From positions 135,075 to 199,074 of the forward strand of contig JBBDRA010000003.1 in NCBI GenBank assembly GCA_040905715.1: 64,000 bases of DNA, written 5' to 3'. Origin of the DNA: Minisyncoccota bacterium (GTDB lineage: Bacteria > Patescibacteriota > Minisyncoccia > Phycocordibacterales > CSBR16-193). How positions within the stretch are numbered: position 1 is the first letter of the stretch; each line of letters opens with the position of its first letter. The notes beneath the pieces are model-generated. The model searched no databases. It was not told the origin of the DNA and worked only from the letters and a program-made list of their open reading frames with translations. Shown here one piece after another: positions 16,791 through 34,726 of this stretch. The position numbers were made by a program, and so were the translations under genes.

Positions 16791-16803
16791 TTTATAATTA
16801 ACT

Positions 16804-20340: not shown

Positions 20341-20404
20341 TTAGATCTTTGAAAAAGTTATAGTGGACACCAAAAAGTTTAGATCTAATCCCCTGATTAA
20401 AAAA

Positions 20405-20433
20405 GTGCCCAGACAGTAAAACTGTTTGGGCAC
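20405..20433. terminator. Bidirectional hairpin terminator between convergent dehydrogenase (+) and ndk (-) genes
   Basis: GTGCCCAGACAGtaaaaCTGTTTGGGCAC: 11/12 complementary arms preceded by AAAAA. Confidence 0.5.
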
Positions 20434-20855
20434 TACAGCATGCGGAAAACCTCGATGTCTTTTTTAGCTTCCGCGCTGTTTCTGGAACGGTGTATGACAT
20501 TCTTATAATACCTCACACCGTCGATCATGAGTGGTTCTGGTGTACCGAGTTTAAATCGGATACTTTCAGGAGCACAATCAGTGGGACTAAGTTCTGTGCC
20601 TGTGATTTGAAGAAGTGTATTAATGGCATCTCTCCCAACCACAAGTCCTGTTTCAACATATGCGTTTACATAGGGTTTAAAGACCGCATTCCTGTACCTT
20701 TCGGGAAGGTCGGAATATACGATTTCTAGTGCCCAGTGTGGCATTATAAGCTTCTTAGTCTCTGGGATGCTTAGACCACCATTCTCAATCATTTTCTTGA
20801 CTTTATCATGGAATACTAAACCGTGAGGCTTGATCATGTAGAAGCTGGTTTCCAA
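20433..20855 (-). CDS. ndk: Nucleoside diphosphate kinase
   Basis: N-terminus ETSFYMIKPHGL (cf. ERTFxMIKPDGV). The C-terminal NVIHRSRNSAEAKKDIEVF parallels NxxHGSDSxESAxREIxxFF, including the catalytic His. Confidence 0.8.
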   Translation of the reverse strand: METSFYMIKPHGLVFHDKVKKMIENGGLSIPETKKLIMPHWALEIVYSDLPERYRNAVFKPYVNAYVETGLVVGRDAINTLLQITGTELSPTDCAPESIRFKLGTPEPLMIDGVRYYKNVIHRSRNSAEAKKDIEVFRML

Positions 20856-21120
20856 AGTACGGCCCTCCTTTCTTATTTAAGGTTTCCTATTCTGATAAGG
20901 ATAATATAATATATTTATGTTTCCGTCAAATGCAAAAATTTATAACCTAATAAGAGATTTACATAATATTGTTATACGTAACTAATCTCTTAGTAAAAAA
21001 TTGATAATTCTCATCAAACTTCAGAATAGATCAGGGATTATGTCTTAAGTAAAATAAGAAAACATATATTCTAAGCCACATTCAGTTTGAGACCGAGACA
21101 GTTTCGAACTTTTTCTGTAT

Positions 21121-22431
21121 TTACGCCATCAAATCAACTTTCTTGTCTTTTACTGTTAACCTACTCTTAAGACAATTCATCAGCTCTCGCTTCTCATCGT
21201 TGGTACCCTCCTGCAGAAGGTACTTTGCATACGTCCTCATATCAAACTCTTTTATTTTTGATTCATCTTCATGCAAGATTCCTTTCCTAAATTTATTGAA
21301 TCGTTTCAGTTCATCTTCAAACTTCTTTTGTATACCTAGTTCGCTGACACTCACTTTATCAATGATTCCAATTAGTTGTTTTATTAAATCTTCTTCACGC
21401 AGATACGGATTTTTGCAGTGTCGATCTCGTGATCTACCACAACCGTAGTAGATGTATTTGGCGGTCGTGCCGTCACGGAGTTTTTTGTATTTCTCTTCAG
21501 CTGAGATACCTGATCCGCACTTGCCACAGAGCATGAGTTTGGTGAAGGCAAACTCCTTATGCTCTCTAACAATCTTATCTCGTTTCAAATGCTCTTGAGC
21601 TTCGTCAAATAGCTCTTTAGTGATGAGCGGTTTGTGCTTTCCTTGATACCAGTTGCCGGAGTCTCGTGGATACTCAAAGACACCGTAATAGAACGGATTG
21701 TCGAGCAGTCGGTAGATACCGCTAAGAGTAAGTGGTTTGTTTCCTCTGGTATGGAAATTAAGTTCAAATCGAAGCCAATGATACAACTTTCTGCCAGACC
21801 ATTTATCGTGTGCCACCTTCTCAAACATCTGCCTTACCACATGACCGCGCTCAGGATCGACTAGTAACAAACCTTTCTTGTCGGTTCGTTTTTGGTTGAG
21901 ATATCCTAATGGTGCCACCGTCGGCCAGTATCCCATCTCACAACGTGCCCTGAGTCCTCGCTTCACGTTAATGCCTCGGTTATCGTTCTCAAGCTTGGCC
22001 TGTGAGCCAAGAATCATTAGGAGGAACTTCTCATTCGGATTATTAGTGAACACCTGTCCATATGTTCGTATCTCATGGAGTTTCCCTTGGTCCATTAGAT
22101 CAACAACTGCGCCGAGGTCTCCGGCATTCCTCGACAGACGATCAGGTGCCCATGCCAGAATACCGGTATACTTGCCAACCCTAACCTCATCCATCAGCTC
22201 ATTGAATACTGGCCTCTGAGCAGTATCTTTGGCTGAATGACTCTCGCGCTTAATATCTACCACTTCAAGCCCTTCACGCTCAGCCAACTGAAGCATCTCC
22301 TTGATCTGCGAATCGATTGAAAGTACCTGACGTTCTTCGCTCTCGGTACTTTTTCGTGAGTACAAGCAGTACTTTATCTTTTCTTTCGGTACTACTTGGT
22401 TTTGCTCCTTTTCTTGTACTGGTATCTCCAT
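21121..22431 (-). CDS. Large serine recombinase (resolvase-domain integrase)
   Basis: N-terminal resolvase domain YCLYSRKSTESEERQVLSIDSQ with catalytic Ser. Recombinase domain, zinc-ribbon cysteines (CGKCGS...YYGCGRSRDRHC) and a C-terminal coiled-coil. Confidence 0.9.
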   Translation of the reverse strand: MEIPVQEKEQNQVVPKEKIKYCLYSRKSTESEERQVLSIDSQIKEMLQLAEREGLEVVDIKRESHSAKDTAQRPVFNELMDEVRVGKYTGILAWAPDRLSRNAGDLGAVVDLMDQGKLHEIRTYGQVFTNNPNEKFLLMILGSQAKLENDNRGINVKRGLRARCEMGYWPTVAPLGYLNQKRTDKKGLLLVDPERGHVVRQMFEKVAHDKWSGRKLYHWLRFELNFHTRGNKPLTLSGIYRLLDNPFYYGVFEYPRDSGNWYQGKHKPLITKELFDEAQEHLKRDKIVREHKEFAFTKLMLCGKCGSGISAEEKYKKLRDGTTAKYIYYGCGRSRDRHCKNPYLREEDLIKQLIGIIDKVSVSELGIQKKFEDELKRFNKFRKGILHEDESKIKEFDMRTYAKYLLQEGTNDEKRELMNCLKSRLTVKDKKVDLMA

Positions 22432-22542
22432 TACTCCAATGAATGACAGAATAGGTTTGAGGAGTCCAGAGCGTCCCGAGTTGATAAGAAGTTGATAAAA
22501 ATCACTTTACTTTATTGGTAATTAATGGTAAGTTAGAAGTTA

Positions 22543-22746
22543 ATGGATAATGAATCTAAAAACTTGGAAGATTTGCCTGAGATATTGACCCTGCGACAAG
22601 CCGCAAATGTTCTTAATTGTCACCCTAATACCTTGAGAAACTGGGATAATGAAGGAGTACTTAAGGCAATTCGTATCGGTCGCCGGAAAGATCGACGATA
22701 TAAAAAAGAGGATGTGTTTAAAATTTTGAAACAAAACAATGGCTAA
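22543..22746 (+). CDS. Excisionase/MerR-like HTH DNA-binding protein (candidate recombination directionality factor)
   Basis: 67 aa. ILTLRQAANVLNCHPNTLRNWDNEGVLKAIRIGRRKDRRY is an Xis/HTH_17-type motif. Divergent from the recombinase gene, and it overlaps the mod start. Confidence 0.65.
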   Translation: MDNESKNLEDLPEILTLRQAANVLNCHPNTLRNWDNEGVLKAIRIGRRKDRRYKKEDVFKILKQNNG

Positions 22747-24406
22747 AGATTACTCAAAAATGAATAAGGAAGAATTACTGAATGAGATTACGAAATTAGA
22801 ATCTCGCAAGTCTTATGGTTTGGTGTGGGAAGATAAGCCAGAGGATGTTGTTGAACAGTGTAAAACTCAAATACCGATTCTTACTGAAGTTAAAAAATAT
22901 TTTATCGAAAAAGATTTGGATAAGCCGACAAATCTTTTGATCGAAGGAGATAATTATCATGCTTTAGCAACATTGAATTATACTCATAGAAAACAAATTG
23001 ACATTATTTATATTGACCCACCGTACAATACTGGTGCAAAGGATTGGAAATACAATAACGATTATGTGGATGAGAATGATTCATTTAGACATAGTAAATG
23101 GTTGTCGATGATGAACCATCGGTTACGTTTATCTAGAAACTTACTTACGGACGAAGGCGCCTTAATTTGCGCGATTGATCATAATGAACAAGAAGCGCTG
23201 GGCGTAATGTTGGATGAGCTTTTTCCAGAAAGAGAGAAAGTTTGTGTAACCATCATACATAATCCTGGTGGGATTCAAGGAAACAATTTTTCTTACACAC
23301 ACGAATATGCATACTTTGTTTTCCCTAAAAATGGCACGTATATCTCAAAGGTTATTAGAGACGATGTAAAGCCTACTCCGCTTAGAGATTGGGGCGGTGA
23401 AGAATCTAAACGCGAATCTGCTAGAAATTGTTTTTACCCAATTCATGTAGATAAAGAAATGAATGTTACGGGATTTGGTGATGTGTTACCAGAAAATAAA
23501 CATCCCAAGTCTGCTGTATTAAAAGAAAAAGATGGATCAATGGTAATTTACCCCATTGACTCTGATGGAGTTGAACGTAAGTGGAGATTTGCGCGACATA
23601 CTGTTGAAAGTATTGAAGATGAACTTAGATGTGAAATAGTAAATGGTGAACCATCAATACGCCGATACAAACAAAAATATAGATGGAAAACTGTTTGGAA
23701 TGATAGTAAATACAATGCAAATGTCCACGGTACACAATATCTTGCAGGTATTATTAAGGAAAAATTCCCTTATCCTAAATCAATCTTTACAGTAGAAGAT
23801 TGTATTAAGGCCATTATTCACGATAAACAAACTGCAACCGTATTAGATTTTTTTGCTGGATCAGGTACAACTGGTCATGCGGTTTTGAAACTTAACGAAG
23901 AAGATGGAGGTAATCGTCGATTCATTCTTTGCACTAACAATGAGAATAAAATCGCTGAAGAAGTAACTTATCCTCGGGTTAAGAACGTTATCAAGGGGTA
24001 CGGTGACGTAGAAGGTATTCCCGCGAATCTCCGATACTACAAAACTGATTTTGTGGATGTTGAATCAGTTCACAGTGTTTCAGATCAAAAGAAAATAGAG
24101 CTTACATATAAAGCAGGTCGGATGATTGCTCTACGAGAGGACACGCTAGAGGAGACTGAGAAGAATGACTGGTGGCAAATATTTACTGACAAAAAAGGAA
24201 AAACCACAGCTATTTATTTTAAAGAGGATAAAGAAAAACTTGATGATCTTGTAAAGAAAATCAGTAAATCTGAATCTGCTGTTCTTTACATATTTAGCTG
24301 GGGTAAAAATGAGTATAAGAACGAGTTTACTGGCCATAAAAACATACGGGTCGAAGATATCCCAGAACCGATCCTTGAGGTATACAAGGAAATTAACAAG
24401 AAATAA
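22739..24406 (+). CDS. Type III restriction-modification Mod subunit (N6-adenine/N4-cytosine DNA methyltransferase, beta class)
   Basis: Motif IV IDIIYIDPPYNT precedes motif I VLDFFAGSGTTGHAV. It lies directly upstream of a helicase-nuclease Res gene. Confidence 0.8.
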   Translation: MAKDYSKMNKEELLNEITKLESRKSYGLVWEDKPEDVVEQCKTQIPILTEVKKYFIEKDLDKPTNLLIEGDNYHALATLNYTHRKQIDIIYIDPPYNTGAKDWKYNNDYVDENDSFRHSKWLSMMNHRLRLSRNLLTDEGALICAIDHNEQEALGVMLDELFPEREKVCVTIIHNPGGIQGNNFSYTHEYAYFVFPKNGTYISKVIRDDVKPTPLRDWGGEESKRESARNCFYPIHVDKEMNVTGFGDVLPENKHPKSAVLKEKDGSMVIYPIDSDGVERKWRFARHTVESIEDELRCEIVNGEPSIRRYKQKYRWKTVWNDSKYNANVHGTQYLAGIIKEKFPYPKSIFTVEDCIKAIIHDKQTATVLDFFAGSGTTGHAVLKLNEEDGGNRRFILCTNNENKIAEEVTYPRVKNVIKGYGDVEGIPANLRYYKTDFVDVESVHSVSDQKKIELTYKAGRMIALREDTLEETEKNDWWQIFTDKKGKTTAIYFKEDKEKLDDLVKKISKSESAVLYIFSWGKNEYKNEFTGHKNIRVEDIPEPILEVYKEINKK

Positions 24407-24408
24407 TT

Positions 24409-26688
24409 ATGTTTACACTTAAAACCTTTCAAGAAAAAGCGATAGCTGAATTACGGAAAAACTTCCTAGAACTTTGGAGTACAGGGAATAAGAGGCTAGA
24501 ACTTATATTCAAATCACCAACTGGATCAGGAAAAACAGTAATGACTGCACAGTTTTTGCGTGACTTAACTGGTGATCCACAATTCAACGCTGACAAAGCA
24601 TTCGTGTGGTTTACCTTTAACGAGGAATCATACGAACAAAGCAAGAAGAAGCTTTTTAAATATTATGGCGGTGCCGGAGAAATCGAACTCCTTGATTTAA
24701 ATGATCTTACCCGTAACGCCAAACTGGAGAAAAACAGTGTCTTCTTTATTAACTGGCAGAAGGTAAAGTCTTCTACTAAAGATGGTCGTAAGTTACGAAA
24801 AGACAACGAGAATGACATTACTTTTGACTCATTCATAGAAAAATCAAAAGCAGATGGTCGTGAGATTGTATTGATTGTTGATGAAGCACATCGAGATGCG
24901 AACACTGACCTTGCTCAGGAACTTATTGATCTCATTGATCCGCGCATTATTCTCAAAATTACAGCCACTCCGAAGAATGAACCGTCGTATTCTGATGTGA
25001 AAAATAAGAAGGTCGGTTTTGTAGACGTTGAGCGTAAGGCTGTAATCGAGGAAGGTTTGATTAAAGAAAAAGTTATTACCCAAACTAAGGAAGATATTGA
25101 GAAAGAGGCAAAGAGAGAAATTGACCAAGATTTATTATTGCTCGATTTAGCGTATCAAAAGCGTCTCGAGCTTAAGAAGAGTTATGAAAAGCTTGGTATT
25201 GATATTAATCCTCTTGTACTGGTCCAACTTCCCAATGATGATAAAGCTCGCAAGGAAACCTTAGATAAATCAAAGAAGGATGTCGTTCTTGATTTTCTAA
25301 AAGATAAAGGTGAAGAAGATCACAATGTTGCTGTTTGGCTTTCAAACGACAAAGAAAATTTGGATGAAATTGAAAAAAATGACTCAGAGATAAATTTCTT
25401 AGTTTTCAAACAGGCGGCTGCCACTGGTTGGGATTGTCCTCGAGCGGCTATCTTGGTGATGTACCGAGAGATTAAAAGTCCGGTCTTTCACATACAAACT
25501 GTCGGGCGAATTCTTCGTATGCCTGAAGCTATTCACTATCCAAGTCCTGATCTAAATATTGGATATCTATATACAAACTACGAGCGAAATCAGATCCTCG
25601 CTGAATACGATAAGCAAAAAGGAGAAAATCGTCCTGCGACACAGATAAGTCGACGCAAGAAAGATGTTAAACCAATCAAGCTCGACTCTGTATTTATGAG
25701 TCGTGCTGACTACAACGACCTTGGTGACTCATTCCAGAAGACATTTAAGCAAGTCGCGAATAAAGAGTTGGGTATTAAAGATGGAAATACTAAAGCACAG
25801 ATTAAGAAGACACTGAAAGAACAGAACCTAGATGTCACAGATGTGAAAGTAGAGAGTAGTCTTATTGTGGATGCTGAAATAGAAAACTACGATAATTTTA
25901 TTGAGGAACTAAGAGCAAATACGGTAGAGCTTTCAAATGAAATTTCACGTAATGATCTGGAGCGTCTCTACAATCTCCTTTGTTTCAATATCATTTCTAA
26001 ACAAGAGGATGAGAACAAGAAATTTGCTCCTGAACGTTCATGGGGAAAGTTGAAAACTGCACTCAACGTCTACTTCTCAAATATGCTAGACATCCCTCGT
26101 GAGGATTACTACAAAGTCATTGTAAATGATCTACTCCGACCAGATAGTGTATTGCGCCCTATTCTTGGGGAGACACTTGAGAAATATCGTCCAATCCGTG
26201 AAAAGGAAGTCAAAGAGAAAGCTAAGCGAACTCGACGTGATGAAGTGTTGGAAATACCACGAGAGTATCTATTCTTCACAGATCTGTATGAAGAGATGAA
26301 AGTGAAGAAGTCTGCGATGCATCCTTTCTATATTCAGAAGGAACCTGTTCAAAATGAAAATGAGTTTATCAAATATCTTGAGGCATCAAGTAAGGTCGAG
26401 TGGTGGTATAAGAATGGTGACTCTGGAAGTGAATATTTCTCAATTCCTTATTATCACGAAACAGAAAATCGTGAACGCCTTTTCTATCCTGACTGGATTG
26501 TGAAGACTAAGAACAAAGTTTGGATCCTCGATACCAAAGCTGGCTTTACTGCCGAAAGCAACGATACTCAATACAAAGCAGAAGCATTGAAAGGATGGTT
26601 AAAGGGAAAGAATAAATTTGACGGCGGTATTGTGGTGCCAGACGGTCCGAACGGGTGGAAAATTGGTGGTAAGAAATTAATTTTATAA
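24409..26688 (+). CDS. Type III restriction enzyme Res subunit (SF2 helicase + C-terminal PD-(D/E)xK-like nuclease)
   Basis: Walker A SPTGSGKTVMTAQ and DEAH box LIVDEAHRD. Late helicase motifs QAAATGWDCP...QTVGRILR. C-terminal YPDWIV...VWILDTKAG. Starts 2 nt after mod. Confidence 0.8.
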   Translation: MFTLKTFQEKAIAELRKNFLELWSTGNKRLELIFKSPTGSGKTVMTAQFLRDLTGDPQFNADKAFVWFTFNEESYEQSKKKLFKYYGGAGEIELLDLNDLTRNAKLEKNSVFFINWQKVKSSTKDGRKLRKDNENDITFDSFIEKSKADGREIVLIVDEAHRDANTDLAQELIDLIDPRIILKITATPKNEPSYSDVKNKKVGFVDVERKAVIEEGLIKEKVITQTKEDIEKEAKREIDQDLLLLDLAYQKRLELKKSYEKLGIDINPLVLVQLPNDDKARKETLDKSKKDVVLDFLKDKGEEDHNVAVWLSNDKENLDEIEKNDSEINFLVFKQAAATGWDCPRAAILVMYREIKSPVFHIQTVGRILRMPEAIHYPSPDLNIGYLYTNYERNQILAEYDKQKGENRPATQISRRKKDVKPIKLDSVFMSRADYNDLGDSFQKTFKQVANKELGIKDGNTKAQIKKTLKEQNLDVTDVKVESSLIVDAEIENYDNFIEELRANTVELSNEISRNDLERLYNLLCFNIISKQEDENKKFAPERSWGKLKTALNVYFSNMLDIPREDYYKVIVNDLLRPDSVLRPILGETLEKYRPIREKEVKEKAKRTRRDEVLEIPREYLFFTDLYEEMKVKKSAMHPFYIQKEPVQNENEFIKYLEASSKVEWWYKNGDSGSEYFSIPYYHETENRERLFYPDWIVKTKNKVWILDTKAGFTAESNDTQYKAEALKGWLKGKNKFDGGIVVPDGPNGWKIGGKKLIL

Positions 26689-26690
26689 TT

Positions 26691-27383
26691 ATGTCATCCC
26701 GTCAAGTAACAAATTGGATTTCTCTTTCTGACATGATGACAGGGTTAATGCTGGTCTTTCTCTTGATTGCTGTTTTGAGTATTGCGCAGGTTGTTGCAAA
26801 AGAAGAAGAGCGACAGGAATTATTGAATGAATATGATTTATCTAAGGAGGAAATTTACAATGATCTAGAAGATACGTTTGGAGACAAAAAAGAAGAATGG
26901 GGAATTGAGATAAGTCGAGATTTGAGCATCAAATTTCAAAATCCTGACGTATTGTTTGGTTATTTAAGTTCTGATATCTCCTCAGAATTTGAAACTATTC
27001 TAGAAGAATTTATTCCTTCGTATCTAAAGATAATAAATAAAGAAAAATATCAAGACAAAATTAAAGAAGTTCGCGTTGAGGGTCATACAGCTGATTGGAA
27101 TGATTATATGTTTACGGTTAAATTGTCTCAAGAAAGGGCAAATGCTGTATTAAGGACTATACTTAACAGTAGCTATTACAACAATTTAGATGCTAAAACA
27201 AAAGATAAAATTAAGTTTTGGTTTACAGCTAATGGACTGGGAAATGGTAGAACTTTGGACTCAGAAGGTGAGTTTACTTATTATTCCGATAAAGATATAA
27301 GCACAAACTCTCGTCGAGTTGAGTTTAGGATTGTGACAACAAGTGATGAACTAATTGAGGAGATTATCAATAGACAGCAATAG
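26691..27383 (+). CDS. MotB/ZorB-like protein: N-terminal TM with conserved Asp plus C-terminal OmpA-like peptidoglycan-binding domain
   Basis: WISLSDMMTGLMLVFLLIA parallels the MotB channel helix (W..yADfMTamMafFlv), including the protonatable Asp. The C-terminal VRVEGHTADWNDY...LSQERANAVLRTIL is the OmpA/MotB signature. Confidence 0.7.
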   Translation: MSSRQVTNWISLSDMMTGLMLVFLLIAVLSIAQVVAKEEERQELLNEYDLSKEEIYNDLEDTFGDKKEEWGIEISRDLSIKFQNPDVLFGYLSSDISSEFETILEEFIPSYLKIINKEKYQDKIKEVRVEGHTADWNDYMFTVKLSQERANAVLRTILNSSYYNNLDAKTKDKIKFWFTANGLGNGRTLDSEGEFTYYSDKDISTNSRRVEFRIVTTSDELIEEIINRQQ

Positions 27384-27389
27384 AACATT

Positions 27390-28427
27390 ATGACTTTAAT
27401 GACAATATTTATAGTGGTTTGGATTGTGCTAACAATTTACATTCCATACAAATTTAAAGAAAGAGGTATCCAAGAGATGCAAACTATTGCAACTACGTTT
27501 GGTATCCTTGGAACATTTATCGGTATTATTGTTGCTTTGTATAATTTTGATACTTCGAACATTGAAGCCGCGGTTCCATTGTTGCTCGACGGATTAAAGT
27601 TTGCTTTTGTAACATCTATTTTTGGAATGTTAACATCTTTACTTATTGGACTTTTTCCTCAAAAATTTGGACACGGTGTTGCCAATGAAGAGGGTGTAAC
27701 TGAAGACAAGGATAAATCAGAGCCAGAATTACTCGCTGAGTTACTTTCAGAAGTTAAAATTCTTAATGGGAATATATCTGGAGAAAGCGATACTACTTTA
27801 ATTACGCAAATTCAAAAAATGCGAACAAGTATTGTAGATAAGCAAGATGATCTAAATAAGGCTTTTGACAAATTTGCCGAAGATATGGTTAATAGTAATA
27901 TTGACGCTCTCGCAGAAGCTATTGAAAAAGTAATGGGTGATTTTAACACGACAGTTAATGAAAAGTTGGGCAGGACCTTTGATGATTTTAAGAAATCAGT
28001 GGAAAATCTTAATGTTTGGCAATCTGAGTATAAAGCTCAGATATTGTCTCAAACTGAAAATATGAAATCAGTTGCAGACTCACTAAGTACTACAGAAAAA
28101 AGTATGAGTGAGGTTAAAGATTCTTATCAAGAAATTGTTTCTATAAAAGAAAAATTTGATGAGCTTCTTAAAAACCTGAATGCGCAATTACAAGGTAGTT
28201 TAGATTTTGCAGACGCAATGAAAGACTTAACAACTGATCTAGAAGGATCGGGCGATGTTATAAAAGAAGAGATGAAAGAGATTACTTATGGAGCTGCTAC
28301 AGAAATGGAAAAAACAATGAATAAAACATTAGCTGATTTTGGGAGTAGTTTAGCAGATATTTCTGGAAAATTAGCGGAGAATTTTGGAAAAATGCAGCGA
28401 GCACTTGATAGTCATGAAAATAACTAA
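27390..28427 (+). CDS. MotA/ExbB/TolQ-like proton-channel protein with ~240-aa C-terminal coiled-coil tail (compact ZorA-like)
   Basis: Three N-terminal TM helices carry the MotA-family motifs FGILGTFIGIIVAL and LKFAFVTSIFGMLTSL. The remainder is E/K/L/Q-rich and predicted coiled-coil. Confidence 0.6.
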   Translation: MTLMTIFIVVWIVLTIYIPYKFKERGIQEMQTIATTFGILGTFIGIIVALYNFDTSNIEAAVPLLLDGLKFAFVTSIFGMLTSLLIGLFPQKFGHGVANEEGVTEDKDKSEPELLAELLSEVKILNGNISGESDTTLITQIQKMRTSIVDKQDDLNKAFDKFAEDMVNSNIDALAEAIEKVMGDFNTTVNEKLGRTFDDFKKSVENLNVWQSEYKAQILSQTENMKSVADSLSTTEKSMSEVKDSYQEIVSIKEKFDELLKNLNAQLQGSLDFADAMKDLTTDLEGSGDVIKEEMKEITYGAATEMEKTMNKTLADFGSSLADISGKLAENFGKMQRALDSHENN

Positions 28428-28432
28428 TATCT

Positions 28433-29245
28433 ATGGAAAAGGACGAATTTAACAATAAAATATCGGATATAGTAAGCTATTTTGATGACATTAAACAAAG
28501 AATCGGTGCTAAAGATACGGGGTTTGTGATAGTGCCAAGAGAATTGAAAACTCCAACTGGTAAATTTAATGCTGGTAAACCAATTACTGGTGCTGAATTA
28601 CAAAGAATTTCTAAAAATTGGAAATCAAAAGATCCTTTGATTGATGAGGAAGGTAATGCGTTCGTTCTTTATATACCTGATTTTACAAGTAATCATTATA
28701 GGAGAGGCTTTTCTCCAGAAAATTTACCAAAGTATCATACTTCTTGGTGTTGGACATTAGATAATATGAAGGAATCAGGAAGAATGAAAAGATATATTAA
28801 AAAGACGGATATAGAAACAAATATCTTTAAAGGGAAAAAGGATGGAGATAGAAATATTGAGAGTGTATTATATGCTTGTCAAAATTGTAGAAAAACATTA
28901 GAAGATATTTACGGAAGAAATATGTATTTTGACGTTAAAAATATGGATATGCTCAAGTTTTTCTCTTTGTACGGAAAACATTATTTATATGACCCTAAAG
29001 TGAAAAAACCTTATTCTGTAATGTATCCAAAACATTGGGATGAAATTTCAAAGAAATATAGAGAAAAAGCAAATTGGAAGTGTGATCAGTGTGGTGAGTC
29101 TTTCGCGAATAACAAAAAGGAATTAGATGTTCACCATATAAATGGAATTAAAAGTGATGTTAGGGATACAAACCTAAAAGTTTTATGTAAAAAACATCAT
29201 GCTGAACAACCTATGCATAGTCATTATAACAAAATTATAAATTAG
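28433..29245 (+). CDS. HNH endonuclease (ZorE-like)
   Basis: C-terminal HNH motif CDQCGESF...DVHHINGIKSDVRDTNLKVLCKKHHA, plus an earlier CQNCRK cysteine pair (zinc-binding). Starts 5 nt after the preceding gene. Confidence 0.7.
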   Translation: MEKDEFNNKISDIVSYFDDIKQRIGAKDTGFVIVPRELKTPTGKFNAGKPITGAELQRISKNWKSKDPLIDEEGNAFVLYIPDFTSNHYRRGFSPENLPKYHTSWCWTLDNMKESGRMKRYIKKTDIETNIFKGKKDGDRNIESVLYACQNCRKTLEDIYGRNMYFDVKNMDMLKFFSLYGKHYLYDPKVKKPYSVMYPKHWDEISKKYREKANWKCDQCGESFANNKKELDVHHINGIKSDVRDTNLKVLCKKHHAEQPMHSHYNKIIN

Positions 29246-29250
29246 TATTT

Positions 29251-30723
29251 ATGAATTTAACAAAAACAGACTTTAAAGAATACTTAATTTGCCCCAAATG
29301 GTTATGGGTAAAGAAAAAGAAACCTGAACTTGCAGTTGAGGGTGAGATGTCGCTATTCCTGAAGAAACTTATTAAAGATGGATATGAGGTTGAGGAATTC
29401 GCTCAGCAGATGTTTCCAAGTGGTGTTGAGATAACTGGCAACTCAGGTGTACTGAAAGAAAAAACTCAGGAATATCTAGAAAAAAATCAAACAATGTTTC
29501 AAGCGACTTTTGAGACAGACAGAGGCTTGTTTGCAAAGGCAGACGTTCTCGAATTTGATGAAGAAAGTGGTAAGTGGAATATCTATGAAATTAAGGCAAG
29601 TTCTTCAATCAAGACCGATCTTCAACATAATCATCTAAAAGATATTACATTTCAAACAATCGTCGCCGAAGAATCAGGGATTCCTATAAATAAAAGTTTT
29701 ATCATCCATATCAATAAGGAATACAAACGAGAGGGTGAAATAAACCCAAGAGAATTATTTGTTATAGAAGACGTCTCTAAAGATGTCCAAGAAGGTAAAG
29801 AAAAAGTAAACCAAGAAATTGAGACTGCTTTAGATTTTTTAAGTAAAGATAAAATCTCAATGGAAGGTTGTGAGTGTTTATACAAATCACACGGACAAAG
29901 ATGTGATTCATTCACAGTCTTTAACCCTAAGGTGCCTGAATATTCAGTTCATCATATCGTTGGTGGAAAGAAACTCCTCTCACTTATTGAAACTGATGTA
30001 TTTGATGTGAAAGAGATTCCAGAAGATTTTAATCTTACCGATAAGCAACAAGAAAAAGTCACACTCCAAAAAACCGGTAAGCCAATAATCGATGAAGAGT
30101 CAATCAGAGAAACGCTTTCTAATTTAACTTTCCCTCTGTATTTCTTAGATTATGAGACTTTTGGTAAGCCATATCCAATACTTGATGGATACACCTCAAA
30201 TCAGCAGATTGTATTTCAATACTCACTACATATTCTAAAGGAAGATGGTTCTTTAGAGCATCGTGAGTATTTAGCTGATGATTTTGAGAATGCCACAAAA
30301 GGACTCCTTGATCATATGAATGAGCATATTGGCCCTACAGGAACTGTTGTCGTCTGGTATGAATCATTTGAAAAAGGAAGAAATAGGGAGCTTGCTGAAA
30401 TACATTCAGAATATGCTGACTTTCTGCACAATATAAACAGCCGAATCTACGATCTAATGCTTATATTTAAAAAAGATTACCTACACCCTGATTTTTATGG
30501 GAGTGCCTCTATCAAAAAAGTGCTTCCTGTAATGCTTCCAGAATTATCCTACAAGAACTTAGAAGTTCAAGACGGAACAATGGCTATGAGCGAATGGGAG
30601 AAGATAGCTACTGGAAAAATTACAGGTGAAGAGGCAGAAGAATTACGAAAACATCTACTGGAATACTGTGAACGAGATACGTTTGCGATGGTTGAGTTGT
30701 TTAAGAAGCTACAACAATTATAA
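29251..30723 (+). CDS. Cas4/RecB-like PD-(D/E)xK nuclease with Fe-S cysteine set, fused to a C-terminal RNase-H-like domain (DUF2779-like architecture)
   Basis: N-terminal YLICPKWLW. Catalytic ADVLEFDE...IYEIKAS (D...ExK). The Cys cluster CECLYKSHGQRC together with the N-terminal Cys gives a Cas4-type 4-Cys arrangement. The C-terminal LYFLDYETF...VVVWYESFEKG resembles the FLDFET RNase-H-like domain. Confidence 0.6.
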   Translation: MNLTKTDFKEYLICPKWLWVKKKKPELAVEGEMSLFLKKLIKDGYEVEEFAQQMFPSGVEITGNSGVLKEKTQEYLEKNQTMFQATFETDRGLFAKADVLEFDEESGKWNIYEIKASSSIKTDLQHNHLKDITFQTIVAEESGIPINKSFIIHINKEYKREGEINPRELFVIEDVSKDVQEGKEKVNQEIETALDFLSKDKISMEGCECLYKSHGQRCDSFTVFNPKVPEYSVHHIVGGKKLLSLIETDVFDVKEIPEDFNLTDKQQEKVTLQKTGKPIIDEESIRETLSNLTFPLYFLDYETFGKPYPILDGYTSNQQIVFQYSLHILKEDGSLEHREYLADDFENATKGLLDHMNEHIGPTGTVVVWYESFEKGRNRELAEIHSEYADFLHNINSRIYDLMLIFKKDYLHPDFYGSASIKKVLPVMLPELSYKNLEVQDGTMAMSEWEKIATGKITGEEAEELRKHLLEYCERDTFAMVELFKKLQQL

Positions 30724-30762
30724 ATATGATGCATGTTATTGAACTTATAAATTATCTTACAG

Positions 30763-31605
30763 ATGTTTTCAAAGTTAATTTTTTTAAAAGACAAACTGTT
30801 TCTTAAAATAAGAAACAAAAAGGATGTAAGACTATACACCTTCAAATCAAAACTACTGCTATATGGAAAAAGAAATTTTAAGCAATATTTCACGATAGCA
30901 AGAGACGGAACTGTGACAGAGAGGATTCTTTTGAATGTACCTGATGTTTCATTAAGAGAAGAAATTATTTGTAAACACTACCTTTCTTTTTTAGTTAAAA
31001 ACTTAATAAAGGAACCTATCGGTATCAACTTGCTAAAAAGGGATCAGCCATGGGATTTTAGTGTTGAGCTCAGTAATGGTGATAAGTTTAATATAGAAAT
31101 CACATCAATCGCTGAAAACAAGGAGTTGTTTGAGAAATTAAAACGTGAAGAGGAGTTTGAAAAAATAGTCGCGAGAAAAAATATTTTATTGCGCGAACTC
31201 AAAAAAATCCATTTCTGGTTTCGTAACAAAAAGGCAAAACAGACCATCAATGATGCTGAAGAAAATTTTTTAAATAAAAACGATAAAGTATTGAATCCTT
31301 TTTACAATTATCCAAGCAGGATTTTCTATAGTAGTTACATAAAGAATGAGGGGGACTCTCTGAAAGATTTGATATCAGGAGCAATTAAAAGAAAGGTGTC
31401 CAAGTCTCATTTAGATAAAGATAAAACTATTTTAATAATTGATAACCGAACTATCCAATTCGGCCTGGAAGACATTTTTTGGGTAATTAAGGAGTTAGAA
31501 GTTGAGTGTGCACACATTCCTTTTCCTGAGATTTATTTCTACACAGGCCACTACTCAGATGACGATGGGAATAATGCTAGGTATTCATTCGTACCCCTTA
31601 AGTAA
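30763..31605 (+). CDS. Hypothetical protein (280 aa), possible degenerate PD-(D/E)xK-like core
   Basis: AT-rich ORF with no clear family. DFSVELSNGDKFNIEITS might be a D...E-x-(K/T) nuclease-like core. Speculative. Confidence 0.35.
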   Translation: MFSKLIFLKDKLFLKIRNKKDVRLYTFKSKLLLYGKRNFKQYFTIARDGTVTERILLNVPDVSLREEIICKHYLSFLVKNLIKEPIGINLLKRDQPWDFSVELSNGDKFNIEITSIAENKELFEKLKREEEFEKIVARKNILLRELKKIHFWFRNKKAKQTINDAEENFLNKNDKVLNPFYNYPSRIFYSSYIKNEGDSLKDLISGAIKRKVSKSHLDKDKTILIIDNRTIQFGLEDIFWVIKELEVECAHIPFPEIYFYTGHYSDDDGNNARYSFVPLK

Positions 31606-31663
31606 CCAGAAAAACATTAAAAACATGCTCACGTCCCTCAGCTATCGAGTTTTCTGAGGGGGG

Positions 31664-32278
31664 TTACCGTTTATTTCTCCTTATCTTTTTTCTATCAAGA
31701 AGTTTCTGAAGATTATCCGCCACCTCTTTAGCTCCGTCTATTTTCAATTTATCTTTTACATCATAAAACTGATCAAAGAAATCATTTATAATATGACGCA
31801 CCTCCTCGCTAGTTCGTTCTTTGGTTCCAAGTTCTTTAATTCTTTTCGATAGCTCGTGAACCAAATCTTCTTTACTTATTTTCTGTTTTTTTCTGCCTCT
31901 ATACTTTTCTATATTGGGTTCTTTATAACCACAAACCCGACATGTTTCTCCAGATTCAAGTTTGTGTGGATGAGTAACTGGATCGACATAAGTTGTACGA
32001 ACTGGTTTGTATCTCGGATTGTTGTATTGAAGCCAGAATATAATAAGGCGAGCATTTTCGTTTTTGATGCCTTTAATAACCGCTGACTCAGCCATGTCAT
32101 TTATGTTCTGCCGACCTATTTCCAATATCGCATCAGTCTGATCACGAAAGTCTTTATCATCCTTACGCCATCTGTAGTAGGTGGTTCGATCAAGGCCGAT
32201 TTTCTTACAGGCAAAAGACACAATTGGTGTCTCTGCCAATATTTGTAATAGTTTCGATTTATCACCCAACCTAGCCAT
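31664..32278 (-). CDS. Phage terminase small subunit (TerS)-like HTH protein
   Basis: N-terminal HTH PIVSFACKKIGLDRTTYYRWRKDDKDF followed by NARLIIFWLQYNNPRY. Compare the aaIFwLKNRrPExW pattern of phage TerS proteins. Confidence 0.5.
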   Translation of the reverse strand: MARLGDKSKLLQILAETPIVSFACKKIGLDRTTYYRWRKDDKDFRDQTDAILEIGRQNINDMAESAVIKGIKNENARLIIFWLQYNNPRYKPVRTTYVDPVTHPHKLESGETCRVCGYKEPNIEKYRGRKKQKISKEDLVHELSKRIKELGTKERTSEEVRHIINDFFDQFYDVKDKLKIDGAKEVADNLQKLLDRKKIRRNKR

Positions 32279-33587
32279 TAATCTTTACCCGTTTCTTACC
32301 CGTATATTTCTCCCATCTATTCAAGATCACTTCCGTATAGACATTCGATTTTTCCATGAGGAAACAACGCCTATTTAACCTATTGGCTGCGATTAAGGTA
32401 GATCCGCTTCCACCAAACGGTTCATACACCAATTCGTCTCTTTTCGTTAGTATCTTTATATACGGAATCAGTATTTCTACAGGTTTCGTGCCAAAGATAA
32501 TTCCCTGACCGCTAGATTTTTCATCCGCCGCATTATGTTCAATAAAGTCAGTTGGGCAGTACTTTTTGTTTTTTCCATATGACTCCCAGTGTGGTTTGCC
32601 GGATATAGCAAACAGAGCGGTTTCGTATTCATTTTCAACAAGTTCCCCCTCTTGTTCTAAATTAACCTCTTTGTTATCCGTACCAACCATAGCAATGTCA
32701 TACTTTGAAAAGAGTTTGTGCTTTCCGGCATACCCTTGATTTCTGTTGGGGAGATGCCAGATAAGCATATTCCTGACTTTCCAGTATTTCTCCATCTCAT
32801 TCCAGATCGTCCTGATATTTTTCCAGTTTTCATAGACAATGATAGCGAAATGCTCGTCTTGTATTTTATTCACATTCGCCATCCACTTTTCGGTAAAGTC
32901 TTCGGGGATAGATTCGGTTTCTAAGTACCTTCTGTTTTTCTTGGCTCCAAAGCCGGTGGTTGCTTCACCGTGTTTAGTCTTGCCGTGTAGGTAATCTAAA
33001 ATATATGGAGGGTCCGTCATAACCATCTGGGCTTTTTCTTTACCAAACAGTTTTGTGACATCTGCCTCTGTTGTGCTATCACCACACATTAAGCGTGACC
33101 CATCGAGATCATAGATATCTCCCTTTTTGACAGTGACTTCTTTGATATCCAGTTTTTCTAGTTCTTTTTGGAGATCAAAAAGTTCTTCTTCGTGATCTTC
33201 GTCGAAAATAATATCTAGTTCTTCGGAATCAAATCCGATGTCAGCTAGAATGGTTTCATCGAATTCTGCCAAAAGGTCATAATTAAATTCTCCTTGATTT
33301 TTGTTTAAACGAAGATTTAATTCTTTTTCTTTTTCCTCGGTTAGATCAAGAAAAACCACAGGAATAGTTGTGTGACCAAGCTCCTTACACACCTCGAGTC
33401 GAAAGTGGCCACCAATAACGACATTGGTTCTCTCTTTATTTTTATTAACAATCAACGGATCAATTGTGCCAAAACGATTGATACTCTCTTTTAATTGTTT
33501 TTTCTGAAATTCATCCCATGTACGAGGATTATATTCAGAAGCGTGAAGTAGATTTATATCTACATATTCTATTTTGATGTTGCTCAT
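32271..33587 (-). CDS. ParB-like nuclease domain fused to N6-adenine/N4-cytosine DNA methyltransferase (orphan MTase)
   Basis: N-terminal ParB/Srx domain (IEYVDINLLHASEYNPRTW...GGHFRLEVCKELG). MTase motif IV MVMTDPPY and motif I VYEPFGGSGSTLIAA. No adjacent restriction endonuclease. Confidence 0.8.
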   Translation of the reverse strand: MSNIKIEYVDINLLHASEYNPRTWDEFQKKQLKESINRFGTIDPLIVNKNKERTNVVIGGHFRLEVCKELGHTTIPVVFLDLTEEKEKELNLRLNKNQGEFNYDLLAEFDETILADIGFDSEELDIIFDEDHEEELFDLQKELEKLDIKEVTVKKGDIYDLDGSRLMCGDSTTEADVTKLFGKEKAQMVMTDPPYILDYLHGKTKHGEATTGFGAKKNRRYLETESIPEDFTEKWMANVNKIQDEHFAIIVYENWKNIRTIWNEMEKYWKVRNMLIWHLPNRNQGYAGKHKLFSKYDIAMVGTDNKEVNLEQEGELVENEYETALFAISGKPHWESYGKNKKYCPTDFIEHNAADEKSSGQGIIFGTKPVEILIPYIKILTKRDELVYEPFGGSGSTLIAANRLNRRCFLMEKSNVYTEVILNRWEKYTGKKRVKING

Positions 33588-33677
33588 AATAACTTAATAA
33601 TTAAACTAATAAACCGTAGCTTTTTGCTACGGTCTTATTTAATCATTAAAAATTTTTGGATTTCATAAAAAAGTACC

Positions 33678-34388
33678 TCACTTTTTTATGAACTTTTTAA
33701 ATACCCGATCCCTTATCTTTTTTATTTGGTCGGATATATTATATATCTCTGACTTACTCGGTCTTTTTCCAGTCTTATCTTCTATAAAGTCTGCTATATC
33801 CTCTGATGTTCTGGTGATATATTCTTGGTCTCCATAGTCAAAATAAATTCTTTTGTTTTCCCATTGATCTTTGATTGCGAGTTTTCTATCTAAATCTTTT
33901 ATTTTCTTGTTAGAAAAAAGTCTCTTACCAAAAAACTTATTTGTAAACTCTTTTATAGTTAACCAATCTTTGTCAGTTAATTTATTATTTATAGTAAGTT
34001 GTACCGCTCTATTTCCAACAGTTGGTTTGATAGAAAAAGGTAACCCTGGAAGTTTTTTAATTTCACCAGTTATTATGTATTGTCTTATCGTCTCAAACCA
34101 GTTATCAGGATAATTAAAGTCCTTAATTATCTCTTGGATACTTGCAGTAAAATAGTTTATGAGTTCCTCCGCATTTTCCTTATGTAGTAATTTATTAAAC
34201 CAAGCCTCAATTGATTGATCCTCATCTTTAGATTCGCTATCTCCATAAAGGCCTTCAGGGATTTCTAAATAGGATCGAATTTCTTGAATTCTTTTTCCAA
34301 ATTCTGGATCACTAAAAGCCAATCGTATATTGTCTTTGTTTCTAGAGCCGTATTCACTTATTTTCCGTTTTAAACCCTTATCTTTCAT
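33678..34388 (-). CDS. Hypothetical protein (236 aa), basic/acidic K/E-rich
   Basis: ORF with island-like AT-rich composition. No recognisable motif. Confidence 0.35.
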   Translation of the reverse strand: MKDKGLKRKISEYGSRNKDNIRLAFSDPEFGKRIQEIRSYLEIPEGLYGDSESKDEDQSIEAWFNKLLHKENAEELINYFTASIQEIIKDFNYPDNWFETIRQYIITGEIKKLPGLPFSIKPTVGNRAVQLTINNKLTDKDWLTIKEFTNKFFGKRLFSNKKIKDLDRKLAIKDQWENKRIYFDYGDQEYITRTSEDIADFIEDKTGKRPSKSEIYNISDQIKKIRDRVFKKFIKK

Positions 34389-34726
34389 TGTTTTGATGAT
34401 AGTTTGTTTGTATTATGAAAGCAACAGTTATATGCTCCCTCGTGTAGTATTTGTTGCATTTTTTACAAGTTACAGCCCGACCCGACCTCCTCAAAATCCG
34501 CTATACTAAAACCACCAAGAAACCCTTGTGGGGCTTGAAATAATTTATTACTTAACCCGAACTGCCCGCCGAAGAGTTTTGCGATGAGGTGGAGAGGGCG
34601 AGCGCAGTATTTTTGAAAAAAATACGTCGCGCGGACTCGAAAAGGTTCTTTAGATATTTTGTGAGCTTGCCTGCTGGCAGGCAGGGAACGAGACAAAATA
34701 TCAAAAACCTGTACTGATCCTGTAAG

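What the first reader, a model, noticed from the sequence alone, without database searches (positions are those of the whole stretch)
21121..33587. Phage-satellite (PICI-like) signature: integrase, Xis, terminase small subunit-like and ParB-methyltransferase genes with no capsid or large terminase genes
The element carries a TerS-like HTH protein (ACKKIGLDRTTYYRWRKDDKDF ... LIIFWLQYNNPRY) and a ParB-MTase fusion typical of phages and plasmids. It has no structural or large-terminase genes in the window. This composition is what phage-inducible chromosomal islands use to hijack helper-phage packaging. Phages and satellites of CPR bacteria are very poorly characterised, so a defence-carrying satellite would be notable.
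Basis: inference. Interest (0 to 1): 0.55.

Follow-up and report, generated by a model that had tools for sequence, protein, structure and literature searches.

The report
Mobile defence island with phage-packaging genes
A 13-kb foreign segment in an ultra-small (CPR) bacterium carries anti-phage systems, a recombinase and a phage-derived DNA-packaging gene but no capsid genes, and it belongs to a very large, apparently undescribed family of such elements that may be the first phage satellites seen in these bacteria.

Summary
Window ~21.0-34.5 kb carries a large serine recombinase (LSR), a small HTH_17 gene, Type III restriction-modification (RM), type II Zorya, a DUF2779 nuclease, a 204-aa TerS-like protein and a ParB-methyltransferase. 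The 64 kb contain no large terminase (TerL), portal or capsid gene.

The 204-aa protein is a true small-terminase (TerS) derivative. Its N-terminal ~90 residues are 31-53% identical to proteins that sit directly before TerL-portal-protease-capsid genes in real phages.

The element belongs to a large family in CPR genomes, built as [small protein]-ParB-MTase-TerS-TerL-[cargo]-LSR, with no structural genes in the ~9 loci whose cargo I checked. TerL relatives number at least 3,125 clusters, and their catalytic motifs are invariant in 27 aligned copies.

The window copy belongs to a TerL-less lineage with a longer TerS carrying a conserved HxH...CxxC motif. It is mosaic: its LSR is 95% identical to LSRs of TerL-bearing minimal elements.

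The "PICI-like satellite" reading is partly supported. The composition fits a satellite, but there is no replication module and no tyrosine integrase. I found no evidence of excision or packaging, and some relatives are decaying. Attachment (att) sites were not resolved. I found no published description.

The parts
20856..21120 (.). Left boundary zone. It contains a hairpin at 21084-21110 just after the LSR stop codon. The att site was not resolved.
   Evidence: DNA similarity to loci with 95%-identical LSRs (L242/L243) ends at window 21103. The hairpin scores as terminator-like. No flanking direct or inverted repeats were found.
21121..22431 (-). Large serine recombinase (LSR), 436 aa.
   Evidence: Resolvase 5e-20, Recombinase 8e-14 and Zn_ribbon_recom 9e-9. 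phrog_95 integrase 5e-65. It is 95% identical to the LSRs of the TerL-bearing minimal elements L242/L244/L246.
22543..22746 (+). 67-aa HTH_17/MerR-type DNA-binding protein. It is divergent from the LSR and its end overlaps the mod start. It could be an excisionase/RDF or the controller of the cargo operon.
   Evidence: HTH_17 8e-11. PHROG hits mix excisionase and HTH families. Homologues lie just before hsdM in L016/L179 and divergent from the LSR in L183.
22739..24406 (+). Type III restriction-modification methyltransferase (Mod).
   Evidence: PADLOC MTase_III 5e-75. N6_N4_Mtase 5e-24.
24409..26688 (+). Type III restriction subunit (Res helicase-nuclease).
   Evidence: ResIII 4e-19. PADLOC REase_III 2e-15.
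26691..27383 (+). ZorB (type II Zorya).
   Evidence: PADLOC ZorB2 1e-66 over the full profile length. OmpA 7e-6.
27390..28427 (+). ZorA (type II Zorya), a short 345-aa form.
   Evidence: PADLOC ZorA2 1e-56. MotA_ExbB 2e-8.
28433..29245 (+). ZorE HNH endonuclease.
   Evidence: PADLOC ZorE2 3e-43. PHROG HNH families.
29251..30723 (+). DUF2779 protein with a Cas4-like N-terminal nuclease region.
   Evidence: DUF2779 2e-37. PADLOC Cas4 4.5e-9. A DUF2779 protein also lies in the cargo of element L029, two genes from a Type III Res subunit.
30763..31605 (+). 280-aa ORF of unknown function, the last cargo gene.
   Evidence: No hit in Pfam, PHROGs or PADLOC.
31664..32278 (-). TerS-derived protein, 'long form', 204 aa. 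Residues 1-90 are a TerS-type HTH plus helices. Residues ~100-113 carry the HPHKLESGETCRVC (HxH...CxxC) motif. The C-terminal region is charged and helical.
   Evidence: PHROG TerS families and PF13022. Best sequence hit among solved structures is Sf6 gp1 TerS, E 0.04. AF2 pLDDT is >89 for residues 1-86. Top fold hits are 2ao9 and 3hef. Synteny with TerL holds in relatives and in phages. The motif is present in every TerL-less long form and absent from all other TerS examined, TerL-linked or not.
32271..33587 (-). ParB_N-N6/N4 DNA methyltransferase fusion. Its end overlaps the TerS start by 8 nt.
   Evidence: ParB_N 2e-9 and N6_N4_Mtase 4e-17. phrog_498 5e-79. It is 78-82% identical to the equivalent gene in other long-TerS elements and 55-63% identical in most ParB-fused TerL-bearing elements; the non-ParB methyltransferase variants are about 25-35% identical.
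33611..33635 (-). Terminator-like hairpin between the first gene and the ParB-MTase gene.
   Evidence: Scan hit. A hairpin sits at the same position in L001, L004 and L253, with compensatory stem changes.
33678..34388 (-). 236-aa first gene of the module. It is a possible DNA-binding regulator and an orphan in the databases.
   Evidence: No family hits. No homologue in the 5.8-billion-protein search. Only weak full-length blastp similarity (5e-4, small database) to the first genes of L010/L012.
34389..34477 (.). Right boundary zone.
   Evidence: The only match to the related genome L095 on this side of TrxB is a 64-nt block at 34478-34541, 95% identical.

Best explanation
Window ~21.0-34.5 kb is an integrated copy of a modular mobile element that is widespread in CPR (Patescibacteria) genomes.

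**Family plan.** One end holds a phage-derived packaging module: a small DNA-binding protein, a DNA methyltransferase (usually fused to ParB), TerS and usually TerL. The other end holds a large serine recombinase (LSR). Variable cargo lies between them.

**This copy.** The cargo is Type III restriction-modification, type II Zorya, a DUF2779 nuclease and one unknown gene. TerL is absent. TerS is a longer variant with an HxH...CxxC motif.

**Most likely way of working (inferred, not shown).**
1. The LSR excises and reintegrates the element, perhaps with the adjacent HTH_17 protein as directionality factor.
2. The TerS derivative binds element DNA and recruits a large terminase supplied in trans. 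The source would be a helper phage or a co-resident TerL-bearing element.
3. The element is packaged into borrowed capsids, as phage satellites are.
4. The ParB-methyltransferase modifies the element's DNA, either for protection in a new host or to license the pac site.
5. The defence cargo pays the host for carrying it.
For: **TerS identity**
- PHROG TerS families and PF13022.
- Best sequence hit among solved structures is Sf6 TerS gp1.
- The N-terminal fold is confident, and the top fold hits are 2ao9 (phage protein phBC6A51) and Sf6 TerS.
- Homologues with 31-43% identity lie directly before TerL, portal, protease and major head genes in phage contigs L092/L077/L079. The same holds in cultured phage vB_RanS_PJN03, where ParB genes precede it.

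**Family**
- About 45 IMG/VR loci share the order methyltransferase - TerS - TerL - 0 to 8 kb cargo - LSR.
- TerL is verified (phrog_38, 1e-79).
- Walker A, Walker B and nuclease Asp residues are invariant across 27 copies that average 46% identity.
- Every TerL with at least 45% identity lies in this context; the next best are 30% or less.
- At least 3,125 TerL clusters reach E<=1e-30. The few that carry a source name are Roizmanbacteria, Microgenomates or Patescibacteria, and contigs reach 906 kb.
- The same plan appears in L247 and L249.
- Cargo sampled in L016, L029, L060, L247 and L249 has no structural genes.

**Window lineage**
- L253, L006 and L251 have the same order: ParB-MTase, long TerS, then restriction-modification cargo. 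An LSR follows in L253 and L006; the L251 contig ends first. None has TerL.
- The HxH...CxxC motif is present in every TerL-less long-form TerS and in none of the other TerS examined.

**Module exchange**
- The window LSR is 95% identical to LSRs of the TerL-bearing minimal elements L242/L244/L246.
- Its ParB-MTase is 79-80% identical to those of elements whose LSRs are only 60% identical.

**Foreign origin**
- GC is 31-41% against about 47% in the host.
- Collinearity with L095 ends at TrxB, after which only a 64-nt block (34478-34541) matches.
- TrxB and TsaD are 25 kb apart here, against 3-9 kb in 14 other Patescibacteria genomes.
Against: - No replication module, no repressor of the CI or Stl type and no capsid-size-redirection gene were detected in this copy.
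- No attachment sites could be defined.
- No related contig has terminal repeats that would indicate a circular or packaged form.
- No pac-like repeat array lies near terS.
- No candidate helper phage with a closely related TerS or TerL was found. The nearest phage TerLs are 30% identical or less.
- Some relatives have lost the LSR (L001) or keep only a fragment of it (L004). Several have truncated or frameshifted TerL (L026, L027, L044, L054, L244). That pattern fits decay or domestication.
- The C-terminal half of the long TerS has no known counterpart, and its structure model is weak.
- Fold and profile matches to solved TerS structures are individually not significant.
Confidence: 0.45

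Rival explanations
1. Decayed prophage remnant that survives as a defence island. A temperate CPR phage with a serine integrase lost its structural, lysis and early genes. What remains (methyltransferase, TerS, integrase) is inert baggage beside selected defence genes, and nothing is packaged any more.
For: - TerL is absent here, with no remnant.
- TerL is truncated or frameshifted in L026, L027, L044, L054 and L244.
- The LSR is lost in L001 and fragmentary in L004.
- No circular or terminally repeated contigs were found.
- The ParB - modification enzyme - TerS - TerL order is also that of real phages.
Against: - Random decay does not give the same compact architecture in dozens of diverged copies and thousands of TerL clusters.
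- TerL catalytic motifs are invariant at 46% mean identity.
- The element TerL clade is separate from phage TerLs, which are 30% identical or less.
- The long TerS is intact in about 20 clusters, with conserved residues and a newly gained conserved motif.
- The ParB-MTase is 78-82% identical across different genomes.
- The LSR is intact and 95% identical to copies in other samples.
Confidence: 0.25
2. An LSR-borne integrative island that does not use capsids. It would spread by excision plus natural transformation. The ParB-MTase/long-TerS pair would serve another role, such as interfering with packaging by invading phages (a TerS decoy), orphan-methylase epigenetic control, or anti-restriction.
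For: - The pair is conserved even where the LSR is gone (L001).
- The long TerS has lost its TerL partner and gained a different C-terminal half with a putative zinc motif.
- The element already carries other defence systems.
- Satellites' TerS-directed interference with helper packaging is a known principle (my own knowledge of SaPI Ppi and PLE; not tested here).
Against: - PADLOC gives no defence-family hit for the long TerS, and for the ParB-MTase only generic Type II / orphan methyltransferase models.
- The pair's closest relatives are functional-looking TerS-TerL pairs in the same element family.
- Nothing here tests interference.
Confidence: 0.2
3. The 204-aa protein is not acting as a terminase subunit at all. 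It would be a transposase-type HTH, or a recombination directionality factor or regulator for the serine recombinase.
For: - The Pfam hits are named HTH_Tnp_1_2 and HTH_Tnp_1.
- PHROG also lists a transposase family, phrog_157.
- The gene always travels with an LSR-bearing element.
Against: - PF13022-type homologues occupy the terS position before TerL and portal genes in phages.
- The gene is translationally coupled to the methyltransferase at the opposite end of the element from the LSR, up to 9 kb away.
- Its sequence does not track the LSR. LSRs that are 95% identical pair with TerS proteins only 41% identical to it.
Confidence: 0.07

Closest known systems
PICIs / SaPIs (phage-inducible chromosomal islands)
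   Same: About 13 kb in size. Integrated, with a recombinase at one end. It has its own TerS homologue, no capsid, tail or lysis genes, and accessory cargo useful to the host.
   Different: The recombinase is a serine recombinase rather than a tyrosine integrase. There is no pri-rep/ori module, no Stl-like repressor and no cpm/ppi genes. Most family members also encode TerL, which classic PICIs do not. The host is a CPR bacterium. Induction and packaging were not shown.
PLE of Vibrio cholerae
   Same: It has a large serine recombinase, is a capsid-less satellite, and manipulates packaging at the TerS level (PMC6002521 and PMC9638900 from the list; the TerS role is from my own knowledge of Boyd & Seed 2024, cited in 10.1101/2025.02.15.638363).
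   Different: PLE has its own replication initiator and origin, and nuclease effectors aimed at ICP1. It has no ParB-methyltransferase and no TerL. No sequence relationship was tested beyond the shared LSR class.
Capsid-forming PICIs (cf-PICIs)
   Same: These satellites encode both TerS and TerL, as most members of this family do (my own knowledge; family TerL shown).
   Different: cf-PICIs also encode capsid, portal, protease and connector proteins. None was found in the family loci whose cargo was examined.
Marine VEIMEs (virion-encapsidated integrative mobile elements)
   Same: Small integrative elements. Some have serine recombinases, TerS homologues, methyltransferases and restriction-modification cargo (PMC9618062).
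   Different: VEIMEs were defined by being found inside virus particles, which is exactly the evidence missing here. They have a different gene plan and marine non-CPR hosts.
Packaging end of temperate siphophages (ParB / DNA-modification enzyme - TerS - TerL - portal)
   Same: Same gene order and homologous TerS, for example vB_RanS_PJN03 and phage contigs L092, L077 and L079.
   Different: In the element family the module stops after TerS or TerL. Cargo and an LSR follow instead of portal and capsid genes.

Membership tests
PICI (SaPI-type or Gram-negative type) | Tyrosine integrase at one end | tested here: not met
   The recombinase has Resolvase + Recombinase + Zn_ribbon_recom domains, so it is a large serine recombinase.
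PICI (SaPI-type or Gram-negative type) | Replication module (primase/helicase-rep plus ori) | tested here: not met
   No ORF in 21.1-34.4 kb hits a primase, Rep or replicative-helicase family. The only helicase is the Type III Res subunit.
PICI (SaPI-type or Gram-negative type) | Master repressor (Stl) or AlpA-type activator next to int | tested here: inconclusive
   A 67-aa HTH_17/MerR-type gene lies divergent from the LSR, but its homologues head RM operons. No CI/Stl-like repressor is present in this copy. TerL-bearing relatives do carry an HTH_3 gene.
PICI (SaPI-type or Gram-negative type) | Packaging-redirection gene (own TerS) with no structural or lysis genes | tested here: met
   TerS homology. 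No TerL, portal or capsid gene in the window.
PICI (SaPI-type or Gram-negative type) | Induction by, and packaging into particles of, a helper phage | not testable with these tools
   Only indirect checks were possible: no terminally repeated contigs and no close phage TerS or TerL.
Phage small terminase (PF13022 / phBC6A51 / Sf6 gp1-like) | N-terminal HTH DNA-binding domain followed by oligomerisation helices | tested here: met
   PHROG TerS families 4e-5 to 4e-3 and PF13022 1.4e-4. Relatives pass the PF13022 cut-off. AF2 gives helices 4-16, 20-27, 31-40, 42-72 and 76-86 at pLDDT >89. Top PDB fold hits are 2ao9 and 3hef, probability 0.8-0.89.
Phage small terminase (PF13022 / phBC6A51 / Sf6 gp1-like) | Gene immediately upstream of, and coupled to, terL | tested here: not met
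   This is met in relatives but not in the window. Here the gene is followed by a convergent cargo gene, and no TerL remnant exists.
Phage small terminase (PF13022 / phBC6A51 / Sf6 gp1-like) | Ring oligomer that binds pac DNA and activates TerL | not testable with these tools
   Only a monomer model was made. The C-terminal half is unlike TerL-linked relatives and unrelated to TerL.
Large serine recombinase (phage-integrase type) | Resolvase catalytic domain + recombinase domain + zinc-ribbon domain | tested here: met
   All three Pfam domains score above their cut-offs.
Zorya type II | ZorA + ZorB + ZorE (HNH) encoded together | tested here: met
   PADLOC ZorB2 1e-66, ZorA2 1e-56 and ZorE2 3e-43 on three adjacent genes. 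The gene order is B-A-E.
Type III restriction-modification | Adjacent Mod methyltransferase and Res helicase-nuclease | tested here: met
   MTase_III 5e-75 and REase_III 2e-15. ResIII 4e-19.
Complete prophage | Portal, capsid, tail and lysis genes | tested here: not met
   None were found in the element or elsewhere in the window.

The most novel reading that the evidence does not exclude
CPR bacteria harbour a vast, so far undescribed class of capsid-less integrative elements that encode their own terminase: methyltransferase, TerS and TerL plus a serine recombinase, with swappable defence or metabolic cargo. These would be the first phage satellites of CPR bacteria. TerL-less derivatives such as this window's, with a zinc-motif TerS, could form a second tier that borrows TerL from helper phages or from TerL-bearing sister elements.
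Probability: 0.35. Interest if true: 0.8.

Novelty: new variant of a known kind. Interest (0 to 1): 0.62.

Why it matters
**Open question.** Phages of CPR bacteria are barely known. A 2025 preprint states that it is unknown whether satellites exist for viruses of CPR or DPANN hosts (10.1101/2025.02.15.638363).

**A testable candidate.** This family has at least 3,125 TerL clusters, a fixed and easily searched gene plan, and cargo that includes restriction-modification systems, Zorya, diversity-generating retroelements (DGRs) and transporters. That makes it a concrete candidate for how tiny, streamlined CPR genomes acquire and exchange defence systems.

**A database caution.** Many IMG/VR 'viral' contigs are in fact these capsid-less elements sitting in cellular genomes.

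**Two tools if confirmed.** The minimal versions (methyltransferase - TerS - TerL - LSR, about 5-6 kb) would be unusually compact packaging-competent units. Their serine recombinases form a family of natural integrases with varied targets.

Tried and rejected
- **tmRNA or tRNA at the right flank.** The sequence at about 34725-34750 looked like a tmRNA 3' end. ARAGORN and Rfam found nothing, at gathering or E-value thresholds, and the segment folds as simple hairpins. Dropped.
- **Att sites from flanking repeats.** No significant direct or inverted repeat links the two boundary zones. Aligning the DNA downstream of related LSRs gave no shared arm. The conserved 18 nt after the LSR stop in L242/L243 is part of a terminator-like hairpin, so it is not evidence for an att site.
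- **Empty-site comparison.** The closest genome (L095, TrxB 84% identical) is collinear up to TrxB. It then shares only a 64-nt block and carries different genes beyond it, so it is not a clean empty site. Of the left-flank genes, only TsaD had a relative in the 80 fetched genomes.
- **Circular or packaged forms.** None of the 94 loci held at that point has terminal direct repeats.
- **Long TerS C-terminus as a fused TerL remnant.** hhalign of A1 against A2 gives probability 0.3%. Rejected.
- **Profile search of the TerS alignment against PDB sequences.** Not significant.
- **Homologues of the 236-aa first gene.** None was found in 5.8 billion proteins, so no structure prediction was attempted.
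- **pac-like repeat arrays near terS.** Only chance-level short repeats were found.
- **Literature.** Seven full-text searches found no description of this element family.

Full report
**Observation.**
- 21121-22431(-) has Resolvase, Recombinase and Zn_ribbon_recom domains, so it is a large serine recombinase (LSR). It also matches PHROG integrase phrog_95 at 5e-65.
- 22543-22746(+) is a 67-aa HTH_17/MerR-type protein.
- 32271-33587(-) is a ParB_N plus N6_N4_Mtase fusion.
- 31664-32278(-) is the 204-aa 'TerS-like' protein.
- A 236-aa gene at 33678-34388(-) precedes the methyltransferase and belongs to the same module.
- No TerL remnant exists anywhere in the window (tblastn).
- PHROG scans of ten unassigned or flanking ORFs outside the element found no head or packaging family. 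One 553-aa ORF gave weak tail-fibre hits beside stronger lipase hits. The other ORFs look like housekeeping genes by eye.
- The window comes from a Candidatus Paceibacterota MAG.

**Is the 204-aa protein a small terminase?** Taken one at a time the database hits are weak:
- PF13022 'HTH_Tnp_1_2' at 1.4e-4;
- five PHROG TerS families at 4e-5 to 4e-3;
- Sf6 gp1 TerS as the best sequence hit among solved structures, at E 0.04.

An AlphaFold model built on 23 homologues is confident for residues 1-86, with pLDDT above 89 and five helices. Its top PDB fold hits are the phage protein phBC6A51 (2ao9, the PF13022 type structure) and Sf6 TerS, at probability 0.8-0.89 but E 0.2-0.8. Viral-structure hits are enriched in annotated small terminases.

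Gene position is the decisive evidence:
- Relatives with 31-43% identity over residues 19-84 lie directly before TerL, portal, protease and major head genes in phage contigs L092, L077 and L079.
- In the cultured phage vB_RanS_PJN03, a homologue with 41% identity lies between ParB/PAPS-reductase genes and the annotated large terminase and portal.
- Closer relatives (about 50% identity over residues 5-91) overlap the start of a 500-520-aa protein that hits TerL family phrog_38 at 1e-79.

**The element family.**
- An IMG/VR scan with the TerS alignment returned 80 loci.
- About 45 of them share one plan: methyltransferase (ParB-fused, or two separate methylases), TerS, TerL, 0-8 kb of cargo, then an LSR 44-78% identical to the window's.
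- In several loci TerL is followed directly by the LSR, giving a unit of about 5-6 kb (L019, L020, L021, L022, L030, L043, L057, L058).
- Cargo sampled downstream of TerL is never structural:
  - Type I RM plus an AAA_15 ATPase (L016);
  - a DinG-like exonuclease-helicase (L060);
  - DUF2779, PIF1 and Type III RM (L029);
  - AAA_5 plus a diversity-generating retroelement (L247, Roizmanbacteria);
  - MarR, an MFS transporter and an alcohol dehydrogenase (L249).
- Twenty-seven element TerLs average 46% identity. They keep Walker A (RGSAKST), Walker B/catalytic Glu (DLIICDDVED) and the nuclease aspartates invariant, which argues for function.
- In a second IMG/VR scan every TerL with at least 45% identity sat in this context, and the next best were 30% or less.
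- A search of 5.8 billion proteins gave at least 3,125 clusters at E<=1e-30. Contigs reach 906 kb, and the only taxon names attached are Roizmanbacteria, Microgenomates and Patescibacteria.
- Seven literature searches found no description. A 2025 preprint says satellites of CPR/DPANN viruses are unknown.

**Where the window's copy fits.**
- Its TerS belongs to a small 'long' subgroup: about 20 clusters, and only 9 of 1,986 family representatives at E<=1e-30.
- After the shared N-terminal domain this subgroup carries a conserved HxH...PGExCxxCGYxEP motif and a charged helical tail.
- In the loci examined, the motif is present in every long TerS, none of which has a TerL partner (window, L001-L008). 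It is absent from all other TerS examined: more than 45 linked to TerL and four TerL-less short forms.
- Contexts of the long form repeat the window's layout. The order is ParB-MTase (78-82% identical), long TerS, mostly RM cargo, then an LSR:
  - L253: Type III RM plus an SNF2 helicase;
  - L006: PvuII-like Type II RM;
  - L251: Type IIG RM.
- L001 has lost the LSR, and L004 keeps only a fragment.
- The window copy is mosaic. Its LSR is 95% identical to LSRs of the TerL-bearing minimal elements L242, L244 and L246. Its ParB-MTase is 79-80% identical to elements whose LSRs are only 60% identical. TerL-bearing and TerL-less elements therefore share one gene pool.

**Boundaries and context.**
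- Host GC is about 47%. The block from 12 to 36 kb is 28-41% GC.
- The closest genome, L095, is collinear with the window from 46.6 kb down to TrxB. After that it shares only a 64-nt block (window 34478-34541, 95% identical) and then carries different genes.
- This places the right edge between 34389 and 34477.
- On the left, similarity to loci with near-identical LSRs ends 18 nt after the stop codon, at 21103, inside a terminator-like hairpin.
- Att sites could not be defined.
- In 14 other Patescibacteria genomes TsaD lies 3-9 kb from TrxB; here the gap is 25 kb. The interval therefore holds at least two insertions: this element, and a biosynthetic-type block at 12.2-20.9 kb with no mobility genes.

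**How it most likely works.**
- Shown: the gene content, the TerS homology, the family architecture, TerL motif conservation, module exchange and the foreign composition.
- Inferred: the LSR moves the element. The TerS derivative marks element DNA for packaging by a large terminase supplied in trans, into capsids of a helper phage. The ParB-methyltransferase modifies the DNA.
- One precedent links methylation to pac cleavage: phage P1 pac (my own knowledge, not tested here).
- I put this satellite-like mechanism at about 0.45.
- Against it: no replication module, no defined att sites, no circular or terminally repeated contigs, no pac-like repeats, no close helper-phage terminase, and visible decay in some relatives.
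- Rivals, with my estimates:
  - an inert prophage remnant kept for its defence genes (0.25);
  - an LSR island spread without capsids, whose methylase/TerS pair has another role such as packaging interference (0.2);
  - an HTH that serves the recombinase (0.07). This is disfavoured because TerS sequence does not track the LSR.

**Comparison with known systems.**
- The element works most like a PICI or PLE-type satellite, but it is not a member of either.
- The PICI-defining tyrosine integrase and pri-rep module were tested and not met.
- PLE shares the LSR class but has its own replicon.
- cf-PICIs share TerS plus TerL but also encode capsids.
- VEIMEs are defined by encapsidation, which is the evidence missing here.
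- I file it as a new variant of a known kind.

**Verdict.** The larger result is the family itself. Interest is 0.62.

Noticed in passing
window 12191-20855: A low-GC (28-38%) block of biosynthetic-type genes lies between tRNA-Ser(cga) and the element, and has no mobility genes. It holds E1 dehydrogenase alpha/beta, an aminotransferase, two ATP-grasp/L-amino-acid-ligase-like proteins, NUDIX, a SAM methyltransferase, a 2-hydroxyacid dehydrogenase and an NDK-like protein. It looks like a second inserted island in the TrxB-TsaD interval.
   Followed up: partly
window 34478-34541: A 64-nt block is 95% identical to L095 11002-11065, while the neighbouring genes are only about 76% identical. It has no tRNA or Rfam match. 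It could be a small RNA, a regulatory element or an integration hot spot, since different DNA follows it in each genome.
   Followed up: partly
window 34542-35877: A GC-rich, hairpin-rich non-coding stretch (34542-34836) and a 297-aa membrane-protein ORF (34837-35730) are absent from the related genome L095. Neither has a family hit.
   Followed up: partly
window 33611-33635; L001, L004, L253 at the same position: A terminator-like hairpin lies between the first gene and the ParB-MTase gene. It is kept across long-TerS elements with compensatory stem changes (GTAGC..GCTAC versus GTGAT..ATCAC).
   Followed up: partly
window 26691-29245: The type II Zorya genes are in the order zorB-zorA-zorE. 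From memory the usual order is A-B-E; I did not check this. ZorA is only 345 aa.
   Followed up: no
L057 3679-5634; L031, L032, L045, L053, L188: In L057 the TerS and TerL regions lie in one unbroken reading frame of about 650 codons, so they may be fused. Several other elements carry two tandem TerL genes.
   Followed up: no
L244/L245 (RVT_1 + bAvd upstream of the methylases); L247 19003-20373: Diversity-generating retroelement genes lie inside or next to family elements. This suggests these elements may help spread DGRs in CPR genomes.
   Followed up: no
IMGVR_UViG_3300009873_002614 (L015 + L017); IMGVR_UViG_3300042286_000458 (L039 + L052): Two family elements lie on one contig. In the first case a TerL-bearing copy sits next to a TerL-less copy.
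   Followed up: no
L010 4646-5516; L247 11503-12367; L249 11539-12372: TerL-bearing elements keep a conserved pair right after TerL: an HTH_3 (Cro/CI-type) gene on the opposite strand and a 163-175-aa protein (phrog_14275, function unknown, in L010 and L247). It resembles a small regulatory switch. The window copy lacks it.
   Followed up: partly
window 50635-52343: Four adjacent small ORFs (124-158 aa) have hydrophobic, signal-peptide-like N-termini. The two that were scanned had no PHROG hits.
   Followed up: no
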